A stretch of DNA of 64,000 nucleotides from a virus (IMGVR_UViG_3300009826_000001:1-64000), one strand, 5' to 3'. Shown: positions 34,672-64,000, numbered from the stretch's first letter. A program made the numbers and translations. The notes: generated by a model from the sequence alone, not told the origin.

Positions 34672-35144
34672 TGGTCGGTGCGGTGATCACGCGGCACTGG
34701 CCGGCCTTGGTGCGCGATGTCCTCGCGCTGGGCTACCGGCCAACCGACCTGTTCACCAAGCTGAGCTTCTCCGAAGTCGCCTGCATCATCATCGCCTCAC
34801 CTCCCAACAGCGCGGTGCGCCATTCCGTCGACAAGGGCTGGAGCCGCGAGGCGCACCTGCTGGCGAACATGGCCGAAGGTGAGGCCGGCATCGCCAAGAT
34901 CAAGGAGCCCTATCAACGGCCCGGCGTGACCGAACGCCAGTCCGACGACCCCACCCAGAACCCGTTCTTCACCGCCGATGCGCTGACCTGGGAGGAATTC
35001 GACCGGCGTGAGAAAGAACGCTACGACCCCAACCGTAAGCACGTGAAACGACCCGGTAGCAGTCATTCCCGGGCGCTGCAGAGCTCGGGCCCCCGCCCGG
35101 TTCCTAAGGTCAACGAACTGAAGTTCGGCAGGAACCGTAAATGA
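34171..35144 (+). CDS. tail assembly chaperone G-T product via programmed -1 frameshift near 34653-34669
   Basis: -1 frame open from 34653 through 35144; G-run CCGGGGGAA in the 17-nt overlap window; T ORF ends 3 nt into the TMP start. Confidence 0.5.
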
Positions 35145-48420: not shown

Positions 48421-49094
48421 CGACCTACAAAGAGCGCAATCCCCGGCGCCGCGGCAGCCAGCCCAACCGGGATTCCAAGTACGCCTTCCCCGGCTCGAAC
48501 CCCTACGCCCGGTCCAGCCACGCGCCGTTGCTGGAGTTCGGCGAGTGGGGCGAGCTGACGCCCAAGACGATCCAGCAGGCCGGCCTGACCGGCGAAGCCC
48601 GCAAGCGCGCCCAGGAGCTGCTCAAGGTGCAGGCCGCCTACCTGGAGATTTACCAGGCGCTGGACTTCCCCAACGATCCCGAGGGCAACGTATGCGATCT
48701 GTCTGGCGCGCACATGACCCAGCCCAAGATCGCGATCGCCTGGACGCTGGCCCTGCTGGGCTTTCGGCGCACTGGGCGCGGCTACATCAAGAAACGCCAC
48801 TACGACGTGCCCGGCGTCTACGACAACGCCTACTACTACGTCGACTCGCGCGCACCCGACGAGGCGTTCGAGGAACTGCGTCCCGAACACCGTTCTGGCG
48901 ACTACAAGCTGCCACCGGACACCCGCCGGCTGGCCGCGATGCGCGACGGCGAGGAGCCCATGCAGTTCCCGCCGGGCTGGGCGGTCAAGCCCGAGGTCAA
49001 CATCGAGTACATCGACCGCGACGAGTACCGCAAACGTTGCGCGACCGAGAACGCGGAGCGCCCGGAATCGGGCAGTGAGGATGAGCAGTCATGA
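48417..49094 (+). CDS. hypothetical tail-region protein (GTG start, about 225 aa)
   Basis: GTGA overlap with upstream stop; in-frame continuation of ORF 48273..49094. Confidence 0.5.
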   Translation: MTTYKERNPRRRGSQPNRDSKYAFPGSNPYARSSHAPLLEFGEWGELTPKTIQQAGLTGEARKRAQELLKVQAAYLEIYQALDFPNDPEGNVCDLSGAHMTQPKIAIAWTLALLGFRRTGRGYIKKRHYDVPGVYDNAYYYVDSRAPDEAFEELRPEHRSGDYKLPPDTRRLAAMRDGEEPMQFPPGWAVKPEVNIEYIDRDEYRKRCATENAERPESGSEDEQS

Positions 49095-50326
49095 CCAGCA
49101 CCCTGATCAACATCCCCGCCGCCACCACCTACGCGCCGGCCAGCAACCAGACCTCGACGGTCCCGCAGATCGGCTCGATCCTCTACATGGCCAGCTACCT
49201 GTTCCAGCTGGCGCTCTCGAGCGAGATCACCCCGCCCGACACGCCGAACATGTACTCGGGGCGCCTGGAGATCATGGGCGATCCCGGCGCGATCGACCTG
49301 TCGCCGCTGATGGGCCCGCAAGGATTTCCCGGCGATGCTTCATTCGCGCTCAGGCGCCAGGACACCCCGGTGGTCAACAGCATCGACGAGCTGCCGACCA
49401 ACCTCACCGACACCACTACCGACATCGGCAAGTATTGGCAGATCGCCACCATCACGGGCGGCGTGATCACCGCCGTGTGGTCCTACGTCTGGTACGGCGA
49501 CTCCTGGCGGGTGCTGCAGATCGGCACCTTCGGCCCTCCCGGTCCCACCCCGGAGATTTCGGTGGCGTGTGAGGCCATCCCGCCACAGAAGCTGCCGACT
49601 TACCCCGACACCACCAGCATCGTGCAGACCAGCGGGGATGCCCTGGACCCGTCGTGGATCTTCCAGCTGGCGGTCCCGGCCGGCCCACCCGGTCCGGTCG
49701 CCGCGGTGGCGACGTTCCCCGACGTGGACGAGACCAACATCGCCGTGATGGACGTGCTGGCGTTCTCCGGGCATTACACCGACCAGGCCAAGCCGATCTT
49801 CAAGCCGTTCTCACTGACCGGCTACGCCTGCCAGTTCTACAGCGTGCCGCAGTCGATCTTCCAGTCCTACTCCGGGTTTGCCCAGCAGGCGTTCATCGGC
49901 AGCTACGCGCTGCCGCCGCAGAACTTCGAGTGGACGCCGATCGTGTGGGGCCACATCGGGGAGGGCGGCGCGATGCTGTCCACCAGCCCGTTCACCGTGG
50001 GCTGCCAGGTGCTGCTGGGCTCTGACACGATGAACACCGGCTCGAACCCCAACGCTGGCCAGCTCATCGCCCGCGGCATCGGCAACACGCTGGGCGAGGT
50101 CAACATCGTCCCGCACTACAGCTACTCCCCCTACACCGGCACCACGCTGACGCCCGAGAACGGCGTGGCGGTCGTTCCCGCTCAACACACCGGGGACGAG
50201 GGCACGATTTTTCTCAACCTTTGGAACGATGGTTTATATGGCGCCTACAACTTCCAGCCGACCAACGCGCAGCTATTTGTGCTGGTGGTGCCCGTCGATC
50301 TGGCTGCCAGCATCCAGCCGTGGTGA
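49091..50326 (+). CDS. minor tail protein with collagen-like GPxG motifs (paralogue of 52031..53833)
   Basis: MGPQGFPGD, GPPGPTP; conserved C-terminal region shared with 52031..53833. Confidence 0.6.
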   Translation: MTSTLINIPAATTYAPASNQTSTVPQIGSILYMASYLFQLALSSEITPPDTPNMYSGRLEIMGDPGAIDLSPLMGPQGFPGDASFALRRQDTPVVNSIDELPTNLTDTTTDIGKYWQIATITGGVITAVWSYVWYGDSWRVLQIGTFGPPGPTPEISVACEAIPPQKLPTYPDTTSIVQTSGDALDPSWIFQLAVPAGPPGPVAAVATFPDVDETNIAVMDVLAFSGHYTDQAKPIFKPFSLTGYACQFYSVPQSIFQSYSGFAQQAFIGSYALPPQNFEWTPIVWGHIGEGGAMLSTSPFTVGCQVLLGSDTMNTGSNPNAGQLIARGIGNTLGEVNIVPHYSYSPYTGTTLTPENGVAVVPAQHTGDEGTIFLNLWNDGLYGAYNFQPTNAQLFVLVVPVDLAASIQPW

Positions 50327-50332
50327 GCACTG

Positions 50333-50746
50333 ATGGCTAACGAACCGACGATCACCCAGCATGGCGACTGGCATTTGGTGCGGCTGGGCAACTGGGAGGT
50401 CAGCATCGCCCCGGACGGCCTGCTGATGCTGCCCCGGCACCTGCACCCGCGCGAGGTCCCCGAGTTCTGTGCGGCGATCACCGCTGCTGCCGAGAAAGCG
50501 ACGGAAGTCGTCTCCGGCAATGAGGAAGCCGCTGCCGCAGCTGTGCCGGCCAAGCCCACCCCGCGCGGGCGACGCCAGGCGATGGTTGCCAGTGGTGACC
50601 TGCCACCGGGTGCTCAGCGCCGAAACATTGTGGCACGCACGGAAACCGGCCGCGGGGCCATCGGGCGCAACCGGCCACGCGATCTGCGCGAGCGCCGGGT
50701 CCCGCAGCCACCGGGACCGCCGGGGGTCACCAATGGCGGCAGATAA
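50333..50746 (+). CDS. hypothetical protein (137 aa)
   Basis: ORF track. Confidence 0.45.
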   Translation: MANEPTITQHGDWHLVRLGNWEVSIAPDGLLMLPRHLHPREVPEFCAAITAAAEKATEVVSGNEEAAAAAVPAKPTPRGRRQAMVASGDLPPGAQRRNIVARTETGRGAIGRNRPRDLRERRVPQPPGPPGVTNGGR

Positions 50747-51107
50747 GCCGATGCGGCCCAAGAGCCCGCCGGTCCGGGTGGAAGTCCGTATCGGCGGCAA
50801 ACTGCGGTTCGCCAACGACGTCTACGAACCGAGCCTTGTCAACGATGAGTTGACGGTCCTGCTCACCGCAGCCCTCAAGCCCACGATGGTGCCCGTGCAG
50901 GAGGCACCGGCGGGTAGCCAGCGTGATGAGTTCGCCGCCGACCCGCGCAACGGCACGCAGATTCTCATGCAGATCCACAACGGCGTGCGGGAGGCCCCTG
51001 CGCCACCGCCTACGCCGACACCTGTCCCGCCCGAATCCGGGCAGACCGCCGCACCCTTGCCGGGACGGCGACCGAGCACGGCCAAGCGCACCAGGAGGAA
51101 ACGATGA
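50733..51107 (+). CDS. hypothetical protein (about 124 aa)
   Basis: ATG 50733 (MAADKPM) in frame of ORF 50469..51107. Confidence 0.4.
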   Translation: MAADKPMRPKSPPVRVEVRIGGKLRFANDVYEPSLVNDELTVLLTAALKPTMVPVQEAPAGSQRDEFAADPRNGTQILMQIHNGVREAPAPPPTPTPVPPESGQTAAPLPGRRPSTAKRTRRKR

Positions 51108-52030
51108 CCACCCCGGTCGGGCAGTCCCTGACCTACTTCCCGGTCACCGGCGACTACCAGAGTGTCAACGCCCCACTGCCCCAGTCCACCACCAGTGCGC
51201 CGATCATGGGCCCGATCCAGGGACTGGTCACCTTCACCCCCCGCGTGCCGGCCGGGTGGGTCGCCTACGTCGCCGACTACCAGATCAGCCAGGACTCCAA
51301 CAACACCCAGACGGTCCAGATCATCGGCGCGATCACCGGCGGTGCCTGGACGCTGGGTTTTCAGGGCGTGTGGACCGCGCCCATCGCCGCGGGTGCCACC
51401 GCCGCCGAGGTGCAGGCCGCCCTGGGCGCGCTGGAAACGGTCGGCACGCCGAACGTGACGGTCACGGGCAATGACGGCGGTCCCTACACGGTGGAGTTCG
51501 TCGGCACGCTGGCCAACCAGCCGTTGCCGCAGTTACTGTCCAGCGTGGGCACCCCGGCCACCGGTGGGCTGACCGTGTCGTCGGGGTCGCCCTACATCAC
51601 CGTGGTGATGCTGCAACCCGGCTCGGTGAGCCGGGTGGCGCCATGCGCTATCGCGATCCCGCCGCTGGTGGCGCGCATCTGGACCACCGGAGAGCTCAGC
51701 GCGATCAACGTGGCCGACTCCGCGGGCGTCGAGCTGGTCGCCAACACCGAAGTGCTCGACCTGACCTACGACCTGATCTATGACGTCACGTTCAACAGCA
51801 TCACCTACGCGGGCCAGCCGCAGTCGCTGGCGCCGTTCGCGTTCATCGCGCCCACTGACGGGACGCCGGTCTGCCTGACCGACCCCAACCTGGCGCGGAT
51901 CGGCTTCGTCGGCCCGCTGGCCACCACCTGGTTCCCCGGTTGGACTCCGAGCCCGACCATCACCGGCGCGACTATCACGCCGCTGACCGTGGTGTCGGTC
52001 GGCGCCGGAGTGTCCTCTGTGGTGGCCTAA
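51104..52030 (+). CDS. minor tail protein (308 aa)
   Basis: ORF track. Confidence 0.5.
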   Translation: MTTPVGQSLTYFPVTGDYQSVNAPLPQSTTSAPIMGPIQGLVTFTPRVPAGWVAYVADYQISQDSNNTQTVQIIGAITGGAWTLGFQGVWTAPIAAGATAAEVQAALGALETVGTPNVTVTGNDGGPYTVEFVGTLANQPLPQLLSSVGTPATGGLTVSSGSPYITVVMLQPGSVSRVAPCAIAIPPLVARIWTTGELSAINVADSAGVELVANTEVLDLTYDLIYDVTFNSITYAGQPQSLAPFAFIAPTDGTPVCLTDPNLARIGFVGPLATTWFPGWTPSPTITGATITPLTVVSVGAGVSSVVA

Positions 52031-53833
52031 ATGACCAGTGCCACCACCACCACAACGACGTCGGCGATCGCCGCGGTCGGCGATACCAGTTTCCTGGCGA
52101 ACTACCTGATCAACGCGCGGCTGTACGCGGTGGTGGTGCCACCGGGAGCCGAGCAGGAGTTCGTGGCGACCTTCGAGGTCAACGGCAGCCAGGGCACGCT
52201 GACGATGGCGGCGATGATCGGCCCGCAGGGTCCCAAGGGCATCGACATGTTCGCCCTCTACCTGCAGACCGACGACATCGAGACACCGGCCGACCTGCCG
52301 ACCACCCTGCAGGACACGGTGGCTGACCAGGGCAAGTTCTGGGTCTTCGACGACGTGGACAACCTGGGCAACATCATCGGCTCCTCGGGTTACATCTGGT
52401 TCGGTACGGGCTGGCGCCGGATCATGATGGGCACCCCCGGTCCTCCCGGGGTTGTGCCGGTGATCACCCCCAGTGTGGCGCTCGTGCCACCCACCGAGGA
52501 CTCCGAGGTCATCCCCGGCGGCACGGCGGCGTTCCCCACGATGGAATTCGACCTGGCCGCACCGGCGGGCCCACAGGGACCGGGCGCCGCGCTCGCGGTG
52601 GCACCCGACGTGGACCTGACCACTAACCCGCCAGTCGTGGGTGACGTGCTGGGCTGGACCGGCGCGTACACCACCGACACCGCACTGATGAGTCCCACCA
52701 GCCTGACCGCGGTGCTCACCAGCGCCGGCTCGCTGGTGGCCGGCAGCTACAGCTATGTGGTCACCGCCGTCAACAGCTCGGGAGAGTCCACCCCGTCCAA
52801 TGAGGTGAGCGTCACCCCGGCCTCGACCGGCGCGGTGGGACTGGCCTGGTCGACCGTGGTCGGCGCGACCAGCTACAACGTCTATCGCGGGAACACCGCC
52901 GGCGGCGAGAACCTCAACCTGGCCAGCGTCACCACCCCGGCCTACACCGACGACGGCACGGCCACCGGCACGGCGGCCACGCCGCCCACGGTGAACAGCG
53001 CGACCACCCAGTACCCGATCTGGGTTCCGGTCAACGTCAGTGAGCTGATCCCCGCTCCCTTCTCCATGCCGGAGAACGCCTTCTCCAGCTACACCGGGCT
53101 TTCCCAGCGCGCACCGATCGGCTCGTTCGCGCTGCCCGCGCAGCCCTATGCCTGGACCCCGATCGTGTGGGGCCACATCGGCGCGTTCGGCATCGAGCTC
53201 TCGGCCAACCCGCTGATGATCGGCTGCGAGGTGCTGCTCGGCGACACCACCACGGGCCAGCTGGTGGGCCGTGGCTTCGGCAACACGCTCGGTGAAGTCA
53301 ACGTGATGCCGCACTACTCCACGCCGTCCATCCCGGCGCAGGCGATCAGCCCGACCAACGACCTGGCCGTGGTCCCGGCCAACCACACCAACCCGGCCCA
53401 AGGGACGGTCTACGTCAACCTCTACAACGACGGCGACATCGGGATCTATATGTTTTCCCCCACCGACGCCCAGCTGTTCGTCATGGTCATCCCCGTCGAC
53501 CCGGCACCGACCACCGGCTCGGGCGGCTCGGGAACCACCGGCGCGCCGACAGCCACCCCCAGCCTGCTGACCTCCATCGAAACCCTGCTCAGTGGCCTGC
53601 TGACGCTGGACCCGACCACCATCTCGGCCGACCTTTCCACCGTGATCTCCACCCTGCAGGGCTTCCTGGGCGGCGCGGTCGCCAACATCACCACGATCCC
53701 GACCACCATCGTGACCTCGATCCAGTCGGCATTGAGCGGCGTGACGAGCCTGTTCGACCCGACCACCATCACCACCGACCTTGCGGGCGCGGTGACTACG
53801 GTGCAGAACTTCCTCACCAGCATCGGCTTATAG
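52031..53833 (+). CDS. minor tail protein with collagen-like motifs and FN3-like insert
   Basis: IGPQGPKGID, GTPGPPGVVP; SYSYVVTAVNSSGESTPSNEVSVTPA...SYNVYRG FN3-like; C-terminal homology to 49091..50326. Confidence 0.6.
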   Translation: MTSATTTTTTSAIAAVGDTSFLANYLINARLYAVVVPPGAEQEFVATFEVNGSQGTLTMAAMIGPQGPKGIDMFALYLQTDDIETPADLPTTLQDTVADQGKFWVFDDVDNLGNIIGSSGYIWFGTGWRRIMMGTPGPPGVVPVITPSVALVPPTEDSEVIPGGTAAFPTMEFDLAAPAGPQGPGAALAVAPDVDLTTNPPVVGDVLGWTGAYTTDTALMSPTSLTAVLTSAGSLVAGSYSYVVTAVNSSGESTPSNEVSVTPASTGAVGLAWSTVVGATSYNVYRGNTAGGENLNLASVTTPAYTDDGTATGTAATPPTVNSATTQYPIWVPVNVSELIPAPFSMPENAFSSYTGLSQRAPIGSFALPAQPYAWTPIVWGHIGAFGIELSANPLMIGCEVLLGDTTTGQLVGRGFGNTLGEVNVMPHYSTPSIPAQAISPTNDLAVVPANHTNPAQGTVYVNLYNDGDIGIYMFSPTDAQLFVMVIPVDPAPTTGSGGSGTTGAPTATPSLLTSIETLLSGLLTLDPTTISADLSTVISTLQGFLGGAVANITTIPTTIVTSIQSALSGVTSLFDPTTITTDLAGAVTTVQNFLTSIGL

Positions 53834-53843
53834 GCAGCTGGTC

Positions 53844-56800
53844 TTGGCTGGGGCGATCGACCTCTACGCCGGCAGTCCCTCGATTGCCGGCTCCAACCTG
53901 TTCCAGATCGACCACAACCCGCTGGATCAGCTCGACCAGGGCATCCAGGACGTCATCGGGCAGGGCTCCTCGGGGCTGGGCGCCAACATCCTGACGGCGA
54001 TCGAAACCGTGGCCCAGGCGATCATCGACACCATCCTGGGCCTGCCGATCGACACGCCACTGAACTTCTCCACCGACGTCAACGCCGCGCTGGGGATGCT
54101 GGGCAGCTTCATCGACAACCTGCTCACCTTCCTGGGCGATCTCAACCCGCTGGACCCGAACTTCCTGTCCAACATGGAGCAGTACGCTGCGCAGTTCATC
54201 GAGTCCATCCTGGCGCCCACCGGCATCTTCGATCTGGCCCAGCAGATCATCGACGCGCTGACCGGCGAGAGCAACTCCTCGATCTCTGGCCTGCTCACCT
54301 GGCTCGACGGCTTCTACAACGCGCTGACCGGCGGCGCGTCCTCGACGCTGGCCGGCGTGGAGAGCTTCTTTACCAACCTGCTCTCACTGTTCGGGCTGTC
54401 CGGCTCGGCGCTGACCGCCTCGGGCTTTGATCCGTTGACGGCGATCGAAACCTTCATCACCGACATCCTGGCGCCCAACGGACTAACCACCCTGATCACG
54501 AACCTGATCGGCAGCATCAGCACCGACCTGGGTGCGGTATGGGCGGCGATCACCGGGATCGCCGGGGCGACGGTCACCGACGTTCAGACCCTGTTCTCCA
54601 ACCTGGCGTCGCTGTTCGGCATCGACCTGTCCAGCCTGAGCAGCGGCACCTTCGATCCGCTCACGGCGATCGAGAACTTCATCACCAACATCCTGCAACC
54701 GAACGGCCTGACCGACTGGATCACCAACCTGCTCTCGGGGCTCGGGATCAGCGCCAGTGGTATCAGCGCGACCGTGCTGACGGACTTAGAAAGCATCATC
54801 GGTGACATCGGCTCGCTTTTGACCGGCGCGAACGTACCGGCGCTGCAGACCGTGATCGACGACTTGCAGTCCGTGATCGACGCGCTCACCGGCGGGACCG
54901 GTGTGATCGCCGACATCACGACCACGATCACGGATGCGATCAGCAGCGCGGCGTCCCTGGCCCAGGGCATCATCGACACGCTGACCGGCAGTGCAGCAGG
55001 CACCGGCACACTCGGTGATCTGGTCACGTCGGTGCAGAGCATGGTCAGCAATGCCGTCAGCAGCGCCGTGAGCACCCTGACATCGCTGGTCCAGGGCGTC
55101 ATCGACACGCTGACCGGAGCTGCCTCGGGCACCGGGACACTGGCCGACCTACAAACCTGGCTGGCCAACCTGCTCTCGATGTTCGGGGTCAACCTGACCG
55201 ACCTGACCAGCGGCACGTTCGACCCGCTGACCACGATCGAGAACTTCATCACGAACATCCTGGCGCCCAACGGGCTCTCGACCATGCTCGACAACCTGCT
55301 GTCCTCGCTGGGCATCTCGAGTAGCGGCATCAGCGCCACCGTGCTCACCGACCTGTCGTCCATCGCCAACGAGATCGGGTCGCTGCTAGGGATCTCCAAC
55401 ATCCCCGATCTGCAAACGCTGGTAGACACCCTGACCGGCGGCTCGGGATCGGCGATCAGTGCCGTCGCCAGCATCCCGGCCGCGATCGGCGGGGTGATCG
55501 ACACTCTGATGCAGGGCTGGGGCGCCACCGGCTCGGGCTACACGCTGGCCGACCTGCTCAACGCGGCGATGAGCATCCCGTCGCAGGCCGTGGCCGGCGT
55601 GCTGGGCGGCACCAACATCGGCACCGCGATCGAGGGTGTCATCGACTCGGCCGTGCAGGCGCTGTCCAACGACGCCACGTCGGCCGGCAACGGCCTGTCG
55701 GTGTTCACCAACCTGCTCAACGACCTGTCCAACATGCTCGGGTTCAACTCGACCGGCGCGGCACCGGCGGGCTCGCTGACCGCGATCGCGCAGACCAACT
55801 CCGAGTTCATCAACCAGCAGTCGGTGACTCAGCCGCTGTCGGCCAACGTGGACCCGACCACCGACGCGGTGTTCCCGCTGTCCAACCTCGCCAGCCTGGG
55901 AACTCCGGCCTCACTGCCGCTGGTCGCACTCACCGCCGCCAACAGCGTCGTCGGGTTCATCTCCACGGTGTACGGCGGCGTCAAGGAATCCATCGACTGG
56001 ATCGGCTACCCGCAAGGCGGCAGCATCGCCGGGATGACCGGGCTCTACCTCAACATCTGGTCGATCAACACCACCACCGGCGTTCCCACGCTGGTGTGGC
56101 AGACGCCCGCCAGCATCCTCAACCAAGTCTCCATCGACACCAAGCCGGACTGGAACGCGCTGAACCTGCCGACCGCCAACTTCATCAGCTCGGTGCAGGG
56201 CGCGATCTACGCCGTCGAGATGGTGCTGACCGGATCAGGGCAGTACAACGTGGTCGGGATGGCCAACGCGATCCCGGCCAAGACCGGCGTCATCCCGGCG
56301 ATGATCGGTGCGCAGCGTGGTGGCGCGACGGCCACCGCGCCTAACAGTCTGCCGGTCATCGGCACCGCGCCCAGCTTTGTCTACGACGCCTCGACCCCGT
56401 GGTTCGGGATGAGCGGCACGGCAGGCCAGACCCAGTACGTGCCCAACCTGGTGCAGCTGTCCACACCGGCCGGGCCCACCTCGATGGTCAACCCCGCGGT
56501 GAGCAACGGATGGGCGAACTACTTCGACATCGTGGTCTGCGGTGCCGGTGGCGGCGGGTCCTCCGGCGGCCTGGTTACCGGAGGCGACGGCGGCTCGGCG
56601 GGCCTGTGGGCGGCGGCGACGTTCACCAGGGCCCAGATGGGCACGGCCAACATCACCGTGCAGGTGGGCGCCGGCGGTGCGGGTGGTCAGGGGCCCGGTC
56701 AGAACGGGGGCAGTGCGGGCACAGCGAGCTACGTCAGCGTGCCAGGACAGGCCACCATCACCGGCGCGGGCGGCGCGGGCTGTGACAACGAGAGCGGAGG

Positions 56801-57020
56801 GCTCACGGCCGGCGCCGGTGTGGAGGCCGGCAACTACCCGCACAACACCGCACACGGCGCGACGAACACCTACTACGGCGGCCTGGGCGGCGCGACCGGG
56901 CAGACCTACGGGGCGCAACCCGGCGGTGGCGGCGCAGGGGGAAACGCCGACATCTACGGCTCATATATCTCCGGTGGCAACGGCGGCCCCGGTGTGGTCT
57001 TTATCCTGGCATATCAATAG
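53844..57020 (+). CDS. large tail fibre-like protein with about 75-aa internal tandem repeats and Gly-rich C-terminus
   Basis: repeats LxxLFGxxLxxLxSGTFDPLTAIExFITNILxPNGL at about 54361, 54587 and 55150; C-terminal GGGGSSGG...GAGGAGGQGPGQNGG. Confidence 0.6.
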   Translation: MAGAIDLYAGSPSIAGSNLFQIDHNPLDQLDQGIQDVIGQGSSGLGANILTAIETVAQAIIDTILGLPIDTPLNFSTDVNAALGMLGSFIDNLLTFLGDLNPLDPNFLSNMEQYAAQFIESILAPTGIFDLAQQIIDALTGESNSSISGLLTWLDGFYNALTGGASSTLAGVESFFTNLLSLFGLSGSALTASGFDPLTAIETFITDILAPNGLTTLITNLIGSISTDLGAVWAAITGIAGATVTDVQTLFSNLASLFGIDLSSLSSGTFDPLTAIENFITNILQPNGLTDWITNLLSGLGISASGISATVLTDLESIIGDIGSLLTGANVPALQTVIDDLQSVIDALTGGTGVIADITTTITDAISSAASLAQGIIDTLTGSAAGTGTLGDLVTSVQSMVSNAVSSAVSTLTSLVQGVIDTLTGAASGTGTLADLQTWLANLLSMFGVNLTDLTSGTFDPLTTIENFITNILAPNGLSTMLDNLLSSLGISSSGISATVLTDLSSIANEIGSLLGISNIPDLQTLVDTLTGGSGSAISAVASIPAAIGGVIDTLMQGWGATGSGYTLADLLNAAMSIPSQAVAGVLGGTNIGTAIEGVIDSAVQALSNDATSAGNGLSVFTNLLNDLSNMLGFNSTGAAPAGSLTAIAQTNSEFINQQSVTQPLSANVDPTTDAVFPLSNLASLGTPASLPLVALTAANSVVGFISTVYGGVKESIDWIGYPQGGSIAGMTGLYLNIWSINTTTGVPTLVWQTPASILNQVSIDTKPDWNALNLPTANFISSVQGAIYAVEMVLTGSGQYNVVGMANAIPAKTGVIPAMIGAQRGGATATAPNSLPVIGTAPSFVYDASTPWFGMSGTAGQTQYVPNLVQLSTPAGPTSMVNPAVSNGWANYFDIVVCGAGGGGSSGGLVTGGDGGSAGLWAAATFTRAQMGTANITVQVGAGGAGGQGPGQNGGSAGTASYVSVPGQATITGAGGAGCDNESGGLTAGAGVEAGNYPHNTAHGATNTYYGGLGGATGQTYGAQPGGGGAGGNADIYGSYISGGNGGPGVVFILAYQ

Positions 57021-57028
57021 GAGGCGTC

Positions 57029-60000
57029 GTGCCGGGCCAGATCACCTTTGAGGTCATCGCCGTCCAGTCCGTCACGGCACCCTTCGACGGCATCGGCGGC
57101 TTGTCGAGCTTCTTCACCCAGGGTGCCGCCGCACCGTTTAGCGCCGAGGGCTCCCTGGACGCGTTGCAGACGGCGATCACCGTGTTCTCCGGCGAGGGCA
57201 GCCTGACGATGGCGCTGCCGACACCGGCGCAGTTCGAGGGCGTAGGAGAGCTGTCCGGCGCGATCGCGGTGCCACTGGATGCCCAATTCGGCACCGAAGG
57301 GCTGCTCAACGACGTACCCTCCGTGGGGGTCAATCCGGTGTTCGGCGCCGAAGGTGTACTCGACGCCGAGATGATCGCCGCGCTGGACGCCCCGTTCAAC
57401 TCCGAGGGCGATTTCGGCGCGATCATCCCCGTGTTCGGTGACGCCGATTTCAGCACCACCGGCACGCTCGGTGTCACGGTCACGACGCTGGCTCCGGGTC
57501 AGGCGCTGTTCGCCGCAGTCGGTCAGCTGGGCGCCGACGTCGAGATGATCGAGTTCCTCGACGGACAGTTCTCCAGCGAAGGCTCGCTATCCGCCGAGGC
57601 GGCCGAGGGCCTTCCGGCCGAGTTCGACAGCACCGGGACGCTGGACGCCGATGTGCTGGCGATCGACGTGGTGAGCGCGCAATTCAGTGCGGAGGGCGTT
57701 TTCACCCCGGCTCCCAGCGCGGGGATGGATGCACAACTGCCCAGTTCCGGGCAGTTGTCGGTCAGCATCCTGGCCGTCGCCATCGTCGCAGCGCAGTTCA
57801 ACGGCGAGGGGCAACTCGACTCGGCCCTCGTCGAGGTGATCGCCGCCGAGTTCACCGCTTCTGCTTCGCTGGCTGCCGCGGTGGTTGAGCGCGCCGAGAG
57901 CGACGGCATCTTCAGCGGTGAGGCCGCGCTGGACGGGATCTCGGGTGCGGCCCTGGACGGCGAGCTCGACGGCGCCGGCCAGCTCAGCCTCGTGGTCGTC
58001 GCCGGCATGGGAACCGCAGCGCCGTGGAGCGGCGAGGGGTCGCTCGCGGCGGTGGTGGTACCGGCGGCTGCTGGCGCGTTCGCTGGGACCGGCTCGCTGG
58101 ATGCGGCCGTGGTCGGAGTCGGCCAGGCCGAGGCGCTGTTCTGCACCGTCGGTGAGCTGGGGTGCATCGTCACGCCTCGCATCGCACTGACGGCGCAGTT
58201 CACCGGAGGGGGCCAGCTGGGCGCGGCGGCGTGGGCGGGTATCGACGCCAACTTCTCCAGTGAGGGCACGCTGATCCCGCCGCGCAACCCGTACACGATT
58301 TACATCGCCGACCAGGGGTATTACACGCTAAACAGCTGGGACGGCTTTGTTTACACGACGCTGGCCGGTCCTGCCGGCGCTGGAGGCTACTACCTCGGAC
58401 CCGCTTATATGGGCTCCGACCTTAGCACCGGCATGGTCTATATGGCCGACTATTTCTACCCGTATCAGATCATCACCTGGGACGGGGCAACAGTTGGAGC
58501 GATATTGGGCGGCCTGGACACCCCTGGGGACCTGAACTACCCCAACGGTGTCGCTGCGGCCAACGGTCTGGTGTACGTCGCTGACACGCAGAACTACCGG
58601 ATCGTGACCTGGGACGGCGCCACCGAGGGGGTACTGCCGCTCACGTTGGCCGGTCCCACCGACGTGGCCGTTGACAGCAAGGGCGTTCTCTATATCGCCG
58701 ATAGCTACGGCCACGCCGCGTACTCCTGGGACGGCACCACACAGCAGCCCCTGCCGCTTCCGGACGGGTTTAGTCCTATGACGCTGGCTACAGACCCGCA
58801 GGATAACGTCTACTTCCTTGCCACTTGGCCCTTAGGTGTGCAGAAGTGGGACGGATCGACCATGCAGGATGTCGAGATCCCCGGCATAACCGCCAACTCC
58901 GGAGGTGGTGGCATCGGAGTTGACCCCGGTGGCCTCCTCTACATAGCCGACAGCAGCAACAACCGCATCGTGACCTGGGACGGCACGACGCTGACCCAGC
59001 TCCCAATCCCCTCGACTTCTTGGCCCGTTGGCCTGGCGTTCCTGCCGACAGTTCCTGCGGTAGTGGGCATCATGGCGCCACGTGAGGCCGCTGCCGAGCT
59101 CTCCGGCGTGGGCACTCTCTCAGCATCCACGGTCCCGTCCACGAGTCGCTCGGGCGCGCTGAGCGCCACCGGCACGCTGGCCGTCACCGTGGTGGCCAGG
59201 CAATTCGCCGCGCCCGCGTTCTCGGGCGGTGCGTCGCTGCAAGCCACCGCGTCCCCCAAGAGGGCCACCAATGCGGGACTGAGTGCCAGCGGGACTCTGT
59301 CGAGCACGGCCTCGGGCACGGTGACCTTCCAGCCCTTCACCGTGGAAAACACCAACCTCTACGGCCAGCCCGTTCCGGCCGGCGCAGTCGGCTGCTACGT
59401 CACCCTGATCGGCGGGGGTGGTGCCGGAGCGACTAACAGTGGCACCACAGCCGGCGGCGGTGGTGGTGGCGGTGGGATGATCACCCGCACCTGGATTCCG
59501 GTGGCCTCACTGGGATCGACGTACTCGGTGGAACGGGGAGGTCCCTCTGTCTCGCCCGGGACCGGGGGAGGGCCATCCTGGTTCACCTCGGGCTCGGTCA
59601 GTCTCTATGGCAACGGCGGTAGCGGAGGCGGCGATCCGACGGCTGGTGCTGGAGGCACCACCAGCGTCGCGGGAATTACCGCGACGGCATTGACGGGCGG
59701 CGCTGGAGGAACCGGAGCCGGTAGCGGCAACGCAGCCCCTGCTGTGTCAACGGGCGCGCCTGGCGGTGGCGGTGGCGGCGGTCAGTCCAGCGTCGGGGGC
59801 GCCGGCGGCAGTAGCGCAACGGTAGCTGGCGGAGCAGCAGGAGCCGCGTCAGCCGGTGCCGGTGGCAGCCCCGCCGCCTCCGCGGCCGGTAACGGGGGAG
59901 CCGGCGGCGGAGGCGGCGGCTCGTCTCTGTCGACCGGAGCCGGTGTCGGTGGCGCGGGGGGCGCCTACGGCGGAGGAGGCGGCGGAGGCGGCGCAGCTCT

Positions 60001-60622
60001 GTCGGGAAACGCCGGGGTCGGCGGCCTTGGCGGCACCGGCTACACGCGCGTGGAGTGGGTGGATGAGACGGGTGCTCCCCCGTCCTACGCTGACACGTTT
60101 GCTCGCGCCAATGCCACCACCCTGGGCAGCGACTGGATAAATATCAGCGGAACCATGATCATCGACACCAACCGGGCCATCGGCGGGACCACGTCAACCA
60201 CCTGGAACCTTGCCCGTTACTACGCGCCCGCGCCATCCGACGACATGTTTGCCGAGGCCGACTGGGGTTCTACCGACATCGCCAACAACTCGGCTTACAT
60301 CATGATCGGGGCGAACAGCACAGATACCGACTGCGCGATGCTTTATAACTGGAACAACCAGTATTTGTTCCTGAACACGTTCATCAACAACACGCAGACC
60401 CAACGCGCCTCGTGGGCAGGCGATCCCTCCGGTCATGTCCGGATTCAGCGCGTCGGCAACGTCTACACCGCCTTGGTTAATGGCACCGCGCGCGTCACCT
60501 GGACCGACAGCAGTAACGTGCTAACCCGAGACGTCAACCACCGCAACTTCGTCATCGGGTCCGACCGCAAGTCATCGACGGGCTACGGGTACCTGCAGAA
60601 CTGGACGGCGGGAACGCCATAA
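57029..60622 (+). CDS. giant tail fibre-like protein: FxxEGxL repeat array, NHL β-propeller, Gly-rich module, C-terminal lectin-like domain
   Basis: about 18-20-aa periodic repeats (AxFxxEGxL) from about 57100 to 58300; NHL-like blades (LVYVADTQNYRIVTWDG etc.) from 58380 to 59000; CYVTLIGGGGAG...GGGGGGGMITRTWIPVASLGSTYS. Confidence 0.65.
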   Translation: MPGQITFEVIAVQSVTAPFDGIGGLSSFFTQGAAAPFSAEGSLDALQTAITVFSGEGSLTMALPTPAQFEGVGELSGAIAVPLDAQFGTEGLLNDVPSVGVNPVFGAEGVLDAEMIAALDAPFNSEGDFGAIIPVFGDADFSTTGTLGVTVTTLAPGQALFAAVGQLGADVEMIEFLDGQFSSEGSLSAEAAEGLPAEFDSTGTLDADVLAIDVVSAQFSAEGVFTPAPSAGMDAQLPSSGQLSVSILAVAIVAAQFNGEGQLDSALVEVIAAEFTASASLAAAVVERAESDGIFSGEAALDGISGAALDGELDGAGQLSLVVVAGMGTAAPWSGEGSLAAVVVPAAAGAFAGTGSLDAAVVGVGQAEALFCTVGELGCIVTPRIALTAQFTGGGQLGAAAWAGIDANFSSEGTLIPPRNPYTIYIADQGYYTLNSWDGFVYTTLAGPAGAGGYYLGPAYMGSDLSTGMVYMADYFYPYQIITWDGATVGAILGGLDTPGDLNYPNGVAAANGLVYVADTQNYRIVTWDGATEGVLPLTLAGPTDVAVDSKGVLYIADSYGHAAYSWDGTTQQPLPLPDGFSPMTLATDPQDNVYFLATWPLGVQKWDGSTMQDVEIPGITANSGGGGIGVDPGGLLYIADSSNNRIVTWDGTTLTQLPIPSTSWPVGLAFLPTVPAVVGIMAPREAAAELSGVGTLSASTVPSTSRSGALSATGTLAVTVVARQFAAPAFSGGASLQATASPKRATNAGLSASGTLSSTASGTVTFQPFTVENTNLYGQPVPAGAVGCYVTLIGGGGAGATNSGTTAGGGGGGGGMITRTWIPVASLGSTYSVERGGPSVSPGTGGGPSWFTSGSVSLYGNGGSGGGDPTAGAGGTTSVAGITATALTGGAGGTGAGSGNAAPAVSTGAPGGGGGGGQSSVGGAGGSSATVAGGAAGAASAGAGGSPAASAAGNGGAGGGGGGSSLSTGAGVGGAGGAYGGGGGGGGAALSGNAGVGGLGGTGYTRVEWVDETGAPPSYADTFARANATTLGSDWINISGTMIIDTNRAIGGTTSTTWNLARYYAPAPSDDMFAEADWGSTDIANNSAYIMIGANSTDTDCAMLYNWNNQYLFLNTFINNTQTQRASWAGDPSGHVRIQRVGNVYTALVNGTARVTWTDSSNVLTRDVNHRNFVIGSDRKSSTGYGYLQNWTAGTP

Positions 60623-63600
60623 TGCCGGGCACACTGGGTTTCCAAGTCGCGATGCTCGTCAACGCCGCGAGCGAGTTCTCCGGCGAGGGCGAACTCGTCG
60701 TGGCCGGCGGCCCCGCGATCGACGCCGCGTTCAACAGCGAAGGACAGCTGAGCACCCGGGTCGAGGCCACGGCCCAATTCAATGGCGAAGGCCAGCTCGA
60801 CGCCGAGACCGAGCAGATCGCCCAGCTTGATGCGCCGTTCAACTCCGCCGGTTACCTCTCGGTCGTGGAGCTGGAGCTGCTCGACGCGCCGTTCAACGGC
60901 GAGGGCACGCTGACGGCGCAGCTCGCTGCGGCACTCAAGGCGCCGTTCTCATCGGACGGCACGCTGAGTGCGATGGTCATGGGCAGTGCGGACTTCAACG
61001 GCGAAGGCCAGCTCGACGCGGCGCTGCAGGCCACCGTCGATGCGGAGTTCAACACGGAGGGCCAACTGGCCCCGTCCGCGCTGAAGATGCTTTACCCGCA
61101 GTTCAACGGCGAGGGCACGCTGGATGCCCGTGTCGAGGAGGGTGTGGCCGCGCGGTTCGGCGCGCAGGGCTCGCTGTCGGTCGTTGTCGAGACGCTGGCG
61201 CAGTTCAGCGGCGAGGGTCAGCTCGACACTGAAGTCCAGGCCGCGTTGGGTGCCGGATTGGGCGCCGAGGGTCAGCTCAACATCGGGCTGATCCAGGGCG
61301 CGGTGATCGAGTTCGATGCCGAGGGCACGCTATCCGCGCAGGCACTGGAGGGTGCTCCGGCGGGGTTCTCGTCGGAGGGCTCACTGGATGCGCTGGTCGG
61401 CCAGCTCGCCTACCCCGAGTTCGAGGGCGAAGGATGGCTGAGCGCCGATGCCACCCAGATACGCCCCGGCGAGGCTTTGTTCTCCGGTGAGGGATCGCTA
61501 CAAGTCGGTGTTGCCGCGCCGCTCGGAGCGGACTTCGGCGCCGATGCCACGTTAGGTGCATCGGCGCTCGCCGGTGCTGCCGGGCCGTTCAACGGCGAGG
61601 GCACGATGAGCACCGCCATCGCGGTGCCACTGGACGCGGAGTTTTACGCCGACGCCACTCTGGTATCTGACACCGTGCCGGTACAGCCCGGCGAGGCGCT
61701 TTTCCCGGCCGAAGGATCGCTACAGGTCACGGCGGCCGCGCAACTCGACGCGCCCTACTGCGCGACCGGGACACTGGCGACGCAGATCAGCGCCATCGTC
61801 GACATCGAGGTCGTCTGGTTCGATGCCGGTGGCACTTTGAGCGCGGCGGTGGCCGAAGAATTCGACGTGCTGTTCGAAGGCGCGGGCGTCCTTGTGTTCG
61901 ACGCGGTGGAGGCGTTCCCGCGCAGTGCCGTCTTCTCATCGGCCGGCACGCTTGCGGCCGATGCCGTCGAGGCGTTCCCGCGCGACGCGGAGTTCTCGGC
62001 AATCGGCACGCCAGGCGCCGGCGCCGACGCTGGGCTGGATGCCCAGTTCCGGGCGGTCGGGGCATTGGATGCGGTGGTCGTTGCGGGGATCGCGGCGATC
62101 TTCGACGCAGAGGGCTCGTACCTGCCGCATGAGGCCGAGGTCATGCACCCCGAGTTCGGCGCCACCGGCACGCTGGACGCGCTGGCCGAACAAACTATCG
62201 ACGCGCAGTTCACCGGGACGGGGTCGGCGAATGCGAGCGCCCAGGTTGGTGTGAATGCCGCGTTCAGTGCGCAGGCAACTCTTGTCATCACCAATCTCGA
62301 ATCCGAGGTCATCACCCCCGATGGAACGACGAAGACCATCGTGCTGGAGAACGTGAACGACCTGGAGGACTTCGTTCCCGATGGACTTCAGTCCTGCTAC
62401 GTCACCCTCATCGGCGGCGGTGGCAGTGGTGGTAACGGCAACAACGCCGCTGTCGCCGGTGGTGCTTCGGGTGGTGGCGGCGGTGGCCGCATCGACCGGG
62501 TGTCTATTGATCCGAGCCTGCTGGGCACCACGTTCAGCGTCGTTACGGGCGTGGGGGGCAACTCGCCCAGCGGCGCTCAGGCCCACGGGATCGCGGGCAG
62601 CGCCTCCACCTTCACTTCTGGCAGCGTCGCCCTGTCAGCGGGCGGTGGTCAGGGTGGCACTGGCGGGAGCATGGCCGACCCTATTCCTGGTGGCGCGGGT
62701 GGCACCTGTTCGGCCACGGGTGTTTCGGTTACGAGCTACACGGGAGGCGCGGGGGCGGCGTCGGATACCACTACACCGGCCGGGTCGTCGGCTCCCAGCA
62801 CCTCGAATAACCAGGGCTCCGGCGGTGGCAACGGCAACTGCACCTCTGGCGCTCCACCCACCAAGGGTGGCTCGTCGCTCTATGTCGCCGGGGGCGCGCT
62901 GGGGCAGATGCCGCCCAGTGCGGGTCTAGGCAACGGCGGCGCCGGCGGCGGCGGTCAGGGCGATAGCAACAGCGCGGGTGCCCAAGGTGGCCTCTACGGC
63001 GGCGGTGGTGGTGGCGGTGGCAGCACCATCTTGCTGGGCACGCCCGGTACGGGTGGGCCCGGCGCGCAGGGGTACGCGAAGGTGGAGATGGAAGTCTTCA
63101 TCCCGGCCGATGCGACACAGCTGGACCCTGTCTCGCTCGAAAACACCAATGTCGTCAACGCGCCGGTGCCAAACTGCTCGGGCATGTACGTCACCCTGAT
63201 CGGCGCGGGGGGCGCCGGTACGGTGGGTCCCGGCTCCGGTGGCGGCGGCGGTGGCCGCATCGCGCGAGTGTGGATACCGATAGCGAGCCTGGGGTCTACT
63301 TACTCGATCACCAGGGGCCTTGGGGTCGCTGGGGCAAACGGCGGGGCCTCCACCTTCACCTCTGGCGCCGTCACGTTGTCGGCCGGTGGCGGCGTGTGGG
63401 GTGGGAGCACCCACGCTGGGGGAACCTGCGTGGTCAGCGGCGTTGCGGCCAGCAGCTATCCCGGCGCTGCAGGGAGCACTGCTGCGGGTACAGCATCTGC
63501 GGCTGCCGGAGCCGGAGGCGGCGGTGGTGCCGGGTACACCGATGGCGGATCGGGCATCCTCTACGACAACGGGGGGAACGCCGGGGGAAACTCCACCGCA

Positions 63601-64000
63601 TCAACTCCCGTAGTTACGGGTGGAGCAGCGGGTCAGCCCGGCAAGGCCCAGGACCCGCAGCTTGGTGGCGGCTCAGGCGGCGGCGGTGCAGGGTCGAACG
63701 CGTATGGGGCCGCCGGGTCCGGTGGACTTGGTGGTAACTACGGCGGTGGTTCGGGTGGTTCTGGGAACAGCCAGTATGGGAACGGAGCGTCCACGCCCGG
63801 TGGCGGCGGCTACACGCTGCTGGAATACACACCCATCGCGCCGATCAACCGCAACGTGAGGTTCACCGGCGGTGGCCAGCTCGGCTTCAGCAAGTTCGTC
63901 GCCAGCACCTACATCGCCCGGCCGCAGTTCAACACGGCGGGTCAGCTGGGCGCAGCCGTTCTCAAGGGCGCACGCCCCTCGTTCAACGCTCAGGGCAGCC
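60623..64000 (+). CDS. giant tail fibre-like protein (3' partial; runs off window)
   Basis: ATG 60623 overlaps upstream TAA; no stop in frame to window end; same FNGEGQL repeat array and two CYVTLIGGGG...RI.R.WIP.ASLGSTYS Gly-rich modules. Confidence 0.6.

What the first reader, a model, noticed from the sequence alone, without database searches (positions are those of the whole stretch)
57029..64000. Two consecutive giant fibre-like genes built from F-x-x-E-G-x-L repeat arrays, an NHL β-propeller and PE_PGRS-like Gly-rich cassettes
57029..60622 and the unterminated ORF from 60623 both begin with long arrays of an about 18-20-aa repeat, roughly xAxFNGEGQLDAxxxxxx (dozens of copies in 57100-58300 and 60650-62300). 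The first then has five or six NHL-type blades (YIADxxNxRIVTWDG, 58380-59000). Both carry one or more cassettes CYVTLIGGGGxG...GGGGGGG(R/M)IxRxWIPxASLGSTYSxxRG (59390-59540, 62395-62540, 63180-63310) followed by long GGxGGxGG tracts reminiscent of mycobacterial PE_PGRS repeats. The first ends in a lectin/LamG-like β-rich domain (YADTFARANATTLGSDWINISG...). This is a highly repetitive, recombinogenic receptor-binding apparatus. The Gly-rich cassette recurs three times and may be a mobile module.
Basis: partly seen in the sequence, partly recalled or inferred. Interest (0 to 1): 0.65.

Follow-up and report, generated by a model that had tools for sequence, protein, structure and literature searches.

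The report
Modular tail adhesins of uncultured mycobacteriophage
Two adjacent giant genes of an uncultured mycobacteriophage-like virus encode tail proteins that combine a long beta-helix stalk of 18-residue repeats, a six-bladed NHL propeller, glycine-rich "brush" domains and a lectin-like tip; this is an unusual combination of mostly known host-binding parts, not a new kind of system.

Summary
ORF1 (57029-60622, 1197 aa) and ORF2 (starts 60622, not 60623; 1504 aa in the parent contig) are the last two tail genes before the lysis cassette of an uncultured siphovirus. Its capsid is about 50% identical to those of cluster Y mycobacteriophages and M. abscessus prophages. ORF1 opens with 22 and ORF2 with 30 diverged 18-aa units (consensus AGLDAPFSGEGTLDAAVA). 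AlphaFold2 (pLDDT 87) folds them as a single-chain beta-solenoid. That model matches MpAFP RIV, CsgA and DUF2807 proteins, and the repeat profile hits DUF2807 structures by sequence. ORF1 continues with a six-bladed NHL propeller, a polyglycine-rich "brush" domain homologous to Bxb1 gp33, and a concanavalin-like C-terminal domain nearest to the TM4 gp23 receptor-binding domain (low-confidence model). ORF2 carries three brush domains and the upstream gene carries one, five in all. At the DNA level the repeats are too diverged to recombine readily. Contigs from three sequencing samples are 100% identical, so this is not an assembly artefact. "PE_PGRS-like" holds only as a structural analogy. The repeat array and the NHL propeller have almost no counterpart in known phages. 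Verdict: a new variant of a known kind, phage host-adhesion proteins, of moderate interest.

The parts
53844..57020 (+). Upstream minor tail protein (1058 aa). It ends in a B-type polyglycine-rich domain (aa 870-1058, nt 56451-57017) and belongs to the same adhesion apparatus.
   Evidence: Pfam Gly_rich_2 E=3.9e-15, 56.9 bits against a cut-off of 24.3; phrog_346 minor tail E=1e-52. 35% identical to the third Gly domain of ORF2.
57029..60622 (+). ORF1, a 1197-aa modular tail adhesin.
   Evidence: GTG start with AGGAGG upstream. The identical gene is called on 7 metagenome contigs. phrog_754 minor tail E=1e-34.
57065..58288 (+). ORF1 repeat array: 22 units of about 18 aa (aa 13-420). Predicted beta-solenoid stalk of about 10 nm. 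Very acidic (49 D+E, 3 K+R).
   Evidence: Repeat HMM and unit table; shuffle test. Fold inferred from the AF2 model of the ORF2 array, to which it is 31-33% identical.
58289..59083 (+). Six-bladed NHL beta-propeller (aa 421-685).
   Evidence: Pfam NHL E=9e-19 on the segment. PDB sequence matches: Pizza designs E down to 8e-26, PknD sensor 1rwi E=3e-14. Six WDG-terminated blades are visible in the sequence.
59084..59323 (+). Short basic linker with about 4 degenerate repeat units (aa 686-765).
   Evidence: Weak repeat-HMM hits at aa 689-741 and motif hits at aa 711 and 751. pI 10.7.
59324..60076 (+). A-type polyglycine-rich 'brush' domain (aa 766-1016).
   Evidence: PDB 9d93_Qa, Bxb1 gp33 tail wing brush, E=1.4e-13 over gp33 residues 36-260 of 267. 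phrog_754 E=1e-34. 47% identical to Che8 gp25 over 278 aa. On its own it scores below the Pfam cut-off (11.6 bits).
60077..60619 (+). C-terminal concanavalin-like (lectin-type) beta-sandwich; putative glycan-binding tip (aa 1017-1197).
60622..64000 (+). ORF2, a modular tail adhesin. It runs off the window; the full length is 1504 aa in the parent contig (L001:13594-18108).
   Evidence: TAATG overlap with ORF1. Full gene in L001, which is 100% identical to the window.
60658..62289 (+). ORF2 repeat array: 30 units (aa 13-556). Predicted beta-solenoid stalk of about 14 nm. Very acidic (77 D+E, 9 K+R).
62323..63099 (+). ORF2 brush domain 1 (A-type, aa 568-826).
   Evidence: Pfam Gly_rich_2 E=3e-11, 44.2 bits against a cut-off of 24.3. 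9d93 gp33 E=3e-13.
63127..63849 (+). ORF2 brush domain 2 (A-type, aa 836-1076).
   Evidence: 48% identical to the ORF1 domain and 40% to ORF2 domain 1. phrog_754 matches ORF2 in two stretches.
63850..64000 (+). Start of a second, basic run of about 5 repeat units (aa 1077-1160). It is followed beyond the window by a B-type brush domain (aa 1158-1350) and an orphan domain of about 155 aa.

Best explanation
ORF1 and ORF2 are distal host-adhesion proteins (minor tail, side-fibre or 'wing' type) of an uncultured siphovirus. Its host is inferred, not shown, to be a Mycobacterium or a related actinobacterium.

Each protein starts with a shared 12-residue N-terminus (MPGxxxFxV), which I infer to be the docking peptide. 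An acidic array of 18-residue units follows. It folds as a single-chain parallel beta-solenoid with one unit per rung: F, L, A and V point inward and the conserved Gly sits in a turn. At the standard 4.8 A rise per rung this gives rigid stalks of about 10 nm (22 rungs) and 14 nm (30 rungs).

The stalks hold out several binding modules. ORF1 carries a six-bladed NHL propeller, a polyglycine-rich brush domain and a concanavalin-like C-terminal domain. ORF2 carries three brush domains and an orphan C-terminal domain. By analogy with solved mycobacteriophage tail tips, the brush domains would contact lipid-rich outer envelope components and the lectin-like tip would bind cell-wall glycans, giving multivalent, probably reversible adsorption.

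Shown here: gene structure, repeat arrays, domain identities, phage tail context and rarity. Inferred: oligomeric state, point of attachment to the virion, ligands and host.
For: Context. The + strand carries an ordered structural module: capsid, major tail, a 3394-aa tape measure, Sipho_Gp37-type and other minor tail proteins, then these genes, then a LysA-like and a holin-like gene. There is a good RBS before ORF1, and ORF1 and ORF2 overlap as TAATG.

Lineage. The capsid is 49-52% identical to Mycobacterium phages Bipper and Typha and to M. abscessus prophages. It is 58-73% identical to prophages in Mycobacterium, Mycolicibacterium and uncultured Actinomycetota genomes, with 49-54% matches in Streptomyces as well.

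Brush domain. It matches the virion protein Bxb1 gp33 and Pfam PF21722. The literature describes polyglycine-rich brush domains on mycobacteriophage tail tips as presumed lipid binders (PMC13243795, PMC13252515, PMC13243192).

Against: - No virion or adsorption data exist; the phage is known only from metagenome contigs.
- The solenoid model is a monomer prediction from an 18-row alignment built from repeat proteins. Phage fibres are usually trimers, and AF2 monomer runs cannot see an intertwined fold.
- The arrays themselves fall below Pfam's DUF2807 cut-off (7.3 and 10.7 bits against 24.2).
- The C-terminal model has low confidence (pLDDT 55).
- The ligands of polyglycine-rich domains are presumed in the literature, not demonstrated.
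- One array homologue (P0009) lies after the lysis genes next to an integrase cassette, not within a tail module.
Confidence: 0.72

Rival explanations
1. The repeat arrays form a classical trimeric intertwined fibre shaft (a triple beta-helix or triple beta-spiral, as in adenovirus or reovirus fibres), not a single-chain solenoid.
For: Phage fibres and spikes are typically trimers (general knowledge). From memory, the motif (hydrophobic-x-F-x-x-x-G-x-L) resembles adenovirus shaft repeats such as GLSFDSTGAITV. AF2 was run on a monomer only.
Against: The monomer model is confident (pLDDT 87, pTM 0.77) and superposes on monomeric solenoids at 2.2-3 A over almost its whole length. The sequence profile independently hits monomeric DUF2807 structures. 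The 16-21-aa spacing fits one rung per unit.
Confidence: 0.15
2. The beta-solenoid regions are catalytic depolymerases of the tailspike or pectate-lyase type that degrade an envelope polysaccharide.
Confidence: 0.05
3. The genes are not virion components. They would be phage-encoded surface or secreted proteins made in the infected or lysogenic cell, for example for superinfection exclusion or host adhesion.
For: The homologue P0009 lies after the lysis genes next to an integrase region. DUF2807 and NHL domains are common in bacterial envelope proteins.
Against: No signal peptide is evident at either N-terminus. The genes are co-oriented and translationally coupled within the tail module, directly after another brush-domain minor tail protein. 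The brush domain's solved homologue is a virion part.
Confidence: 0.05
4. The repeat architecture is an assembly artefact (collapse or expansion of repeats).
For: The source is short-read metagenome assembly. Two Logan contigs break inside a Gly-rich tract of ORF2.
Against: Contigs from three sequencing samples (one ENA assembly, two Logan runs) are 100% identical over 13-17.5 kb, covering both arrays. The arrays have no DNA-level tandem repeats and their units are diverged, so there is nothing for an assembler to collapse.
Confidence: 0.02

Closest known systems
Mycobacteriophage Bxb1 gp33 'tail wing brush' (PDB 9D93); Pfam PF21722 Gly_rich_2; polyglycine-rich domain as in Salmonella phage S16 gp38
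   Same: The Gly-rich cassettes are homologous to almost the whole of gp33 (E about 1e-13). They lie in minor tail genes of an actinobacteriophage. The stand-alone homologue Che8 gp25 is 47% identical to the ORF1 domain.
   Different: Here the domain is fused into proteins of 1058-1504 aa, occurs five times in three consecutive genes (three times in ORF2) and falls into two subtypes (A about 250 aa, B about 190 aa). gp33 and Che8 gp25 are small proteins that consist of little more than this one domain.
DUF2807 (PF10988) beta-helix proteins (3jx8, 3lyc, 3ljy, 3pet, 7muc) and other narrow solenoids (MpAFP RIV 3p4g, curli CsgA, TibA and Ag43 passengers)
   Different: The window arrays score below the Pfam cut-off. 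They are much longer (22 and 30 rungs) and strongly acidic, with a conserved Phe and Glu. They sit at the N-terminus of phage tail proteins. No Ca-binding motif like that of MpAFP is evident, and no autotransporter or T4SS context.
Extracellular NHL sensor domain of M. tuberculosis PknD (1rwi) and the 'Pizza' designs derived from it
   Same: A six-bladed NHL propeller with blades of about 42 residues. PknD is the best natural match in the PDB (E=3e-14).
   Different: It is embedded in a phage tail protein between a solenoid and a brush domain, with no kinase and no transmembrane segment. tblastn finds no credible NHL counterpart in 50,697 phage genomes, and no PHROG family matches it.
C-terminal receptor-binding domain of TM4 gp23 (9n6a) and the Douge gp23 BppU carbohydrate-binding module (8zdo)
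   Different: Sequence identity is only 7-14%. The model is of low confidence. No Pfam LamG or CBM family is hit. The only sequence relatives found are P0009-type proteins, which are weakly DUF7257-like.
Mycobacterial PE_PGRS proteins
   Same: Gly-rich GGx tracts. The literature models both as polyproline-II helix bundles (PMC13243192).
   Different: There is no PE domain, and no Pfam PE or PGRS hit turned up in the scans. The domain has its own family (PF21722) and starts with a beta-strand segment (CYVTLIGGGG...). The resemblance is an analogy, not membership.

Membership tests
Pfam PF21722 Gly_rich_2 / polyglycine-rich 'brush' domain | Profile HMM score above Pfam's gathering cut-off (24.3 bits) | tested here: met
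   ORF2 domain 1 scores 44.2 bits, the upstream gene 56.9 and ORF2 domain 3 42.8. The ORF1 domain and ORF2 domain 2 score only 11.6 and 9.5 bits alone, but they are 47%/48% and 40% identical to ORF2 domain 1 or to each other and match phrog_754.
Pfam PF21722 Gly_rich_2 / polyglycine-rich 'brush' domain | Homology to an experimentally solved brush domain (Bxb1 gp33, 9D93) | tested here: met
   E=1.4e-13 (ORF1 aa 767-964 against gp33 36-260) and E=3.1e-13 (ORF2 aa 549-796).
Pfam PF21722 Gly_rich_2 / polyglycine-rich 'brush' domain | Polyglycine-II / PPII helix-bundle fold | not tested
The fold is inferred from homology to gp33 and from PMC13243192.
NHL repeat beta-propeller (PF01436) | NHL HMM above the gathering cut-off (20 bits), in several repeats | tested here: met
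   61.6 bits on the whole protein and 66.9 bits on the segment, three stretches.
NHL repeat beta-propeller (PF01436) | Six blades closing a propeller | tested here: inconclusive
   Six [YF]-x-[AL]-[DT]...W-D-G units are visible at aa 425-680, and alignments to six-bladed Pizza6 and PknD span four blades. No 3D model was made.
DUF2807 (PF10988) beta-helix | HMM above the gathering cut-off (24.2 bits) | tested here: not met
   The window arrays score 7.3 and 10.7 bits. Array homologues P0003 (55.0), P0014 (47.9), P0002 (27.6) and P0001 (25.8) do pass.
DUF2807 (PF10988) beta-helix | Profile-level sequence similarity to solved DUF2807 proteins | tested here: met
   Profile A2 against PDB sequences: 3jx8 E=1.3e-4, 4opw 7e-4, 3lyc 3e-3, 3ljy 0.014. 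The GSG turn aligns to GeG. The profile includes homologues that are themselves DUF2807-positive, so the evidence is indirect for the window sequence.
DUF2807 (PF10988) beta-helix | Single-chain parallel beta-solenoid with about 18-20 residues per rung | tested here: met
Concanavalin A-like lectin/glucanase (LamG-type) domain | Sequence-family hit (Laminin_G or a CBM family) | tested here: not met
   No Pfam hit for ORF1 aa 1015-1197 at E<=10 apart from noise. Two other rows of alignment A3, which includes the P0009 C-terminus, reach DUF7257 at a best E of 9.3e-5; full-length P0009 scores 20.7 bits, below the 27-bit cut-off.
Concanavalin A-like lectin/glucanase (LamG-type) domain | Jelly-roll beta-sandwich fold | tested here: inconclusive
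PE_PGRS | N-terminal PE domain followed by PGRS repeats | tested here: not met
   The Pfam scans of ORF1 and ORF2 gave no PE-family hit. The N-termini are repeat arrays.
Phage minor tail / receptor-binding protein (functional class) | Encoded in the tail module between the tape measure and the lysis genes, with homology to virion tail components | tested here: met
Phage minor tail / receptor-binding protein (functional class) | Presence in the virion and a role in adsorption | not testable with these tools
   The phage is uncultured and known only from metagenome contigs.

The most novel reading that the evidence does not exclude
The NHL propeller would be a host-derived, PknD-type extracellular sensor domain that the phage has co-opted as a receptor-binding module, displayed on a previously unrecognised class of single-chain acidic beta-solenoid fibre shaft. 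If so, the phage domain would bind the same, still unknown envelope ligand that PknD-type sensors detect. That would offer a way to find the ligand.
Probability: 0.12. Interest if true: 0.65.

Novelty: new variant of a known kind. Interest (0 to 1): 0.42.

Why it matters
Host recognition by mycobacteriophages is poorly understood and limits phage therapy for mycobacterial disease. Only a few tail tips have been solved.

This locus shows that the known brush and lectin-type modules can be combined with two modules almost unseen in sequenced phages:
- A very long DUF2807-like beta-solenoid stalk. Only 33 related cluster representatives exist among 1.84 billion, there is no PHROG family, and no confident viral structure match was found.
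- A PknD-type NHL propeller.

The result gives an annotation for a small, so far unnamed family of phage tail proteins with F-x-G-x-G-x-L arrays. It also provides candidate parts for engineering the reach and valency of receptor-binding proteins. It does not reveal a new kind of system.

Tried and rejected
Searches that gave nothing useful:
- Word-indexed homologue searches with full ORF1, the ORF2 array and the ORF1 C-terminal domain returned no hits. For the first two the 8000-candidate list was saturated by low-complexity words.
- megablast of the region against phages: no match.
- ORF1 against viral contigs and genome contigs: none.
- ORF1 against metagenome contigs: only unrelated bacterial NHL surface proteins at 32% identity.
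- Alignment A2 was too variable for the search for related loci.
- Exact cluster look-ups of ORF1 and ORF2 failed, and the variant P0035 is not on record. Copy-number variation between strains could therefore not be examined.
- NCBIfam gave nothing.
- The ORF2 C-terminal domain has no Pfam, PHROG, PDB or tblastn hit.
- BFVD has no match to the solenoid model at E<=0.001.

A method that failed: the first pseudo-alignment of register-shifted array segments (A1) was aligned by MAFFT in staggered true register and was discarded.

Ideas rejected:
- A triple beta-spiral, suggested by a remembered resemblance to adenovirus shaft repeats. It is kept only as a rival explanation.
- PE_PGRS membership.
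- A recent mobile cassette.
- Assembly collapse.


Full report
**Gene structure and context**

The window (62-71% G+C) carries a co-oriented phage structural module on the + strand:
- major capsid protein, 24512-25999
- major tail protein, 33499-34158
- a 3394-aa tape measure protein, 35141-45325
- a series of minor tail proteins, including a Sipho_Gp37-type protein at 46429-48420
- a 1058-aa minor tail protein, 53844-57020
- the two genes of the finding

ORF1 is 57029-60622. It has a GTG start preceded by AGGAGG. ORF2 starts at ATG 60622, overlapping the ORF1 stop as TAATG.

An exact look-up of ORF1 found it on seven metagenome contigs from three samples. The longest is a 127.5-kb ENA contig, L001. 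L001 is identical to the window over the 16,972 shared bases. Contigs from two other sequencing runs are 100% identical to it over 17.5 and 13.2 kb.

In L001, ORF2 is 1504 aa. Small ORFs follow it, then a LysA-like protein (C39-like peptidase plus GH19) and a holin-like protein. ORF1 and ORF2 are therefore the last tail genes before the lysis cassette.

The capsid protein is 49-52% identical to those of Mycobacterium phages Bipper and Typha and of M. abscessus prophages. It is 58-73% identical to prophage copies in Mycobacterium, Mycolicibacterium and uncultured Actinomycetota genomes, with weaker matches (49-54%) in Streptomyces genomes. The most likely source is an uncultured phage of a Mycobacterium or a related actinobacterium. 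The host is inferred, not shown.

**The repeat arrays**

A profile built from the obvious units finds 22 units in ORF1 (aa 13-420) and 30 in ORF2 (aa 13-556).
- The consensus is AGLDAPFSGEGTLDAAVA.
- Spacing is 16-21 residues, mostly 18.
- Phe is kept in 47 of 52 units, Gly in 47 and Leu in 46.
- The strict motif F...G.L occurs 15 and 21 times, against 0.3-0.4 expected and at most 3 in 2000 shuffles.

Four degenerate units separate the NHL and Gly-rich domains of ORF1. About five more follow the second Gly-rich domain of ORF2. These short runs are basic, whereas the long arrays are very acidic (49 D+E against 3 K+R, and 77 against 9).

At the DNA level the units are old and diverged. Tandem Repeats Finder sees nothing in the arrays. 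Self-BLAST finds only patches of about 72% identity, and near-exact stretches are at most 24-37 nt. The locus is therefore neither an assembly artefact nor a strong substrate for homologous recombination.

**What the arrays are**

No Pfam, PHROG or NCBIfam family matches them at any useful threshold.

An exhaustive phmmer search of ORF2 aa 1-560 against 1.84 billion cluster representatives found only 33 proteins at E<=1e-3. The best had E=1.3e-20 and 35% identity. All 18 retrieved hits carry arrays of F-x-G-x-G-x-L-S-A units. Their partner domains include GH5/GH39-like and apiosidase-like hydrolases, a subtilase, a LamG domain, or a C-terminal domain like that of ORF1. Four of them pass Pfam's cut-off for DUF2807. 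All four whose contigs I read lie in phage structural regions.

- TibA and Ag43 passengers
- at lower identity, tailspikes and lyases

Independently, the sequence profile of the alignment hits DUF2807 crystal structures: 3jx8 E=1.3e-4, 4opw 7e-4, 3lyc 3e-3.

I conclude that each unit is one rung of a narrow single-chain parallel beta-helix distantly related to DUF2807. At the standard 4.8 A rise per rung the stalks would be about 10 and 14 nm long.

The fold is a prediction. The oligomeric state is unknown, and an intertwined trimer is kept as a rival. Among viral proteins the fold is rare. BFVD has no match at E<=0.001, and tblastn against 50,697 phage genomes gives one marginal hit, Microbacterium phage Magritte gp27 at E=7e-3.

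**NHL propeller**

ORF1 aa 421-685 contains six blades, each ending in W-D-G. Pfam NHL scores 61.6-66.9 bits against a cut-off of 20. The best natural PDB match is the extracellular sensor domain of M. tuberculosis PknD (E=3e-14). The PknD-derived Pizza designs score higher because they are idealised repeats.

There is no PHROG family for this segment and only one marginal tblastn hit among deposited phage genomes. A metagenome scan returned only unrelated bacterial NHL surface proteins.

**Gly-rich cassettes**

This is Pfam Gly_rich_2 (PF21722), matching phrog_754 and related minor-tail families.

The domain is homologous to almost the whole of Bxb1 gp33, the 'tail wing brush' in the solved tail structure 9D93 (E about 1e-13). 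The literature calls these polyglycine-rich or brush domains. It describes them as glycine-rich PPII-helix bundles like phage S16 gp38, with hydrophobic patches presumed to contact lipid-rich envelope layers, and it notes the structural parallel with PE_PGRS models (PMC13243192, PMC13243795, PMC13252515).

There are five copies of two subtypes:
- A-type, about 250 aa: one in ORF1 and the first two in ORF2, 40-48% identical to each other
- B-type, about 190 aa: the upstream gene and the third copy in ORF2, 35% identical

The ORF1 copy is as similar to the stand-alone Che8 gp25 (47% over 278 aa) as it is to its own paralogues. The module has therefore been shuffled and duplicated over evolutionary time. 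It is not recently mobile.

**C-terminal domains**

ORF1 aa 1017-1197 matches phrog_2804 (E=2e-14) and the C-terminus of the array protein P0009 (E=2.6e-15 in a local search). Within alignment A3, which includes that C-terminus, two rows other than ORF1 weakly match DUF7257.

The last ~155 residues of ORF2, beyond the window, have no detectable relatives.

**Mechanism**

The most economical reading is a multivalent adsorption apparatus. Three consecutive tail proteins display five brush domains, one NHL propeller, one lectin-like tip and one orphan tip. Two of these proteins hold their modules away from the tail on rigid acidic solenoid stalks.

ORF1 and ORF2 share their first 12 residues (MPGxxxFxV). 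This peptide may be the point of attachment to the baseplate; that is inference only.

Gene structure, domain identities and context are shown here. Attachment, stoichiometry, ligands and host are inferred.

**Verdict**

Each binding module except the NHL propeller has a precedent in mycobacteriophage tail tips. The long DUF2807-like arrays and the NHL propeller are new in this setting. I rate it a new variant of a known kind, of moderate interest.

Noticed in passing
window 35141-45325: The tape measure gene encodes 3394 aa (phrog_991, E=1e-6). By the usual rule of about 1.5 A per residue this implies a tail of roughly 0.5 micrometre, exceptionally long for a siphovirus.
   Followed up: no
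window 49091-64000: The distal tail proteins are extremely poor in Lys+Arg (0.5-2.2%; the 1058-aa protein at 53844-57020 has only 5). The capsid, tape measure and non-structural ORFs have 6-14%. All the distal proteins are strongly acidic.
   Followed up: partly
window 54343-55352: The upstream minor tail gene contains its own diverged internal DNA repeats (71-74% identity over 136-209 nt), which indicates a further repeated domain in its N-terminal half.
   Followed up: no
window 49091-50326 and 52031-53833: Two paralogous minor tail proteins both match phrog_1565 (E=2e-83 and 6e-91). The second also has a segment with weak hits to esterase/lipase and Ig-like decoration families.
   Followed up: no
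window 31046-31699: A methyltransferase gene (phrog_3382, E=1.5e-35) sits between the head and tail genes.
   Followed up: no
L001:17644-18105 (ORF2 C-terminus, beyond the window): An orphan C-terminal domain of about 155 aa ends in ...LCLTEFEVWRS. It has no Pfam, PHROG, PDB-sequence or phage tblastn match.
   Followed up: partly
L001 about 17573 (ORF2 third Gly-rich domain): Both Logan contigs (two different sequencing runs) end at the same position inside a poly-Gly tract, probably a k-mer assembly break. The ENA contig reads through.
   Followed up: partly
L004, L028, L029, L030 (contigs of array homologues): In all four homologue contigs examined, a small gene with Pfam Gp80 (PF23140) lies next to or near the array protein, and in two there is also an LtfC (PF23926) gene. 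The two small ORFs after ORF2 in L001 (18185-18535, 18594-18947) gave no Pfam hit.
   Followed up: partly
source contigs: The parent ENA contig is 127,506 bp. A JGI/IMG contig of 127,488 bp carries a variant (within 90% identity) of the 1058-aa upstream protein. This suggests a near-complete genome of about 127.5 kb, large for this lineage.
   Followed up: no
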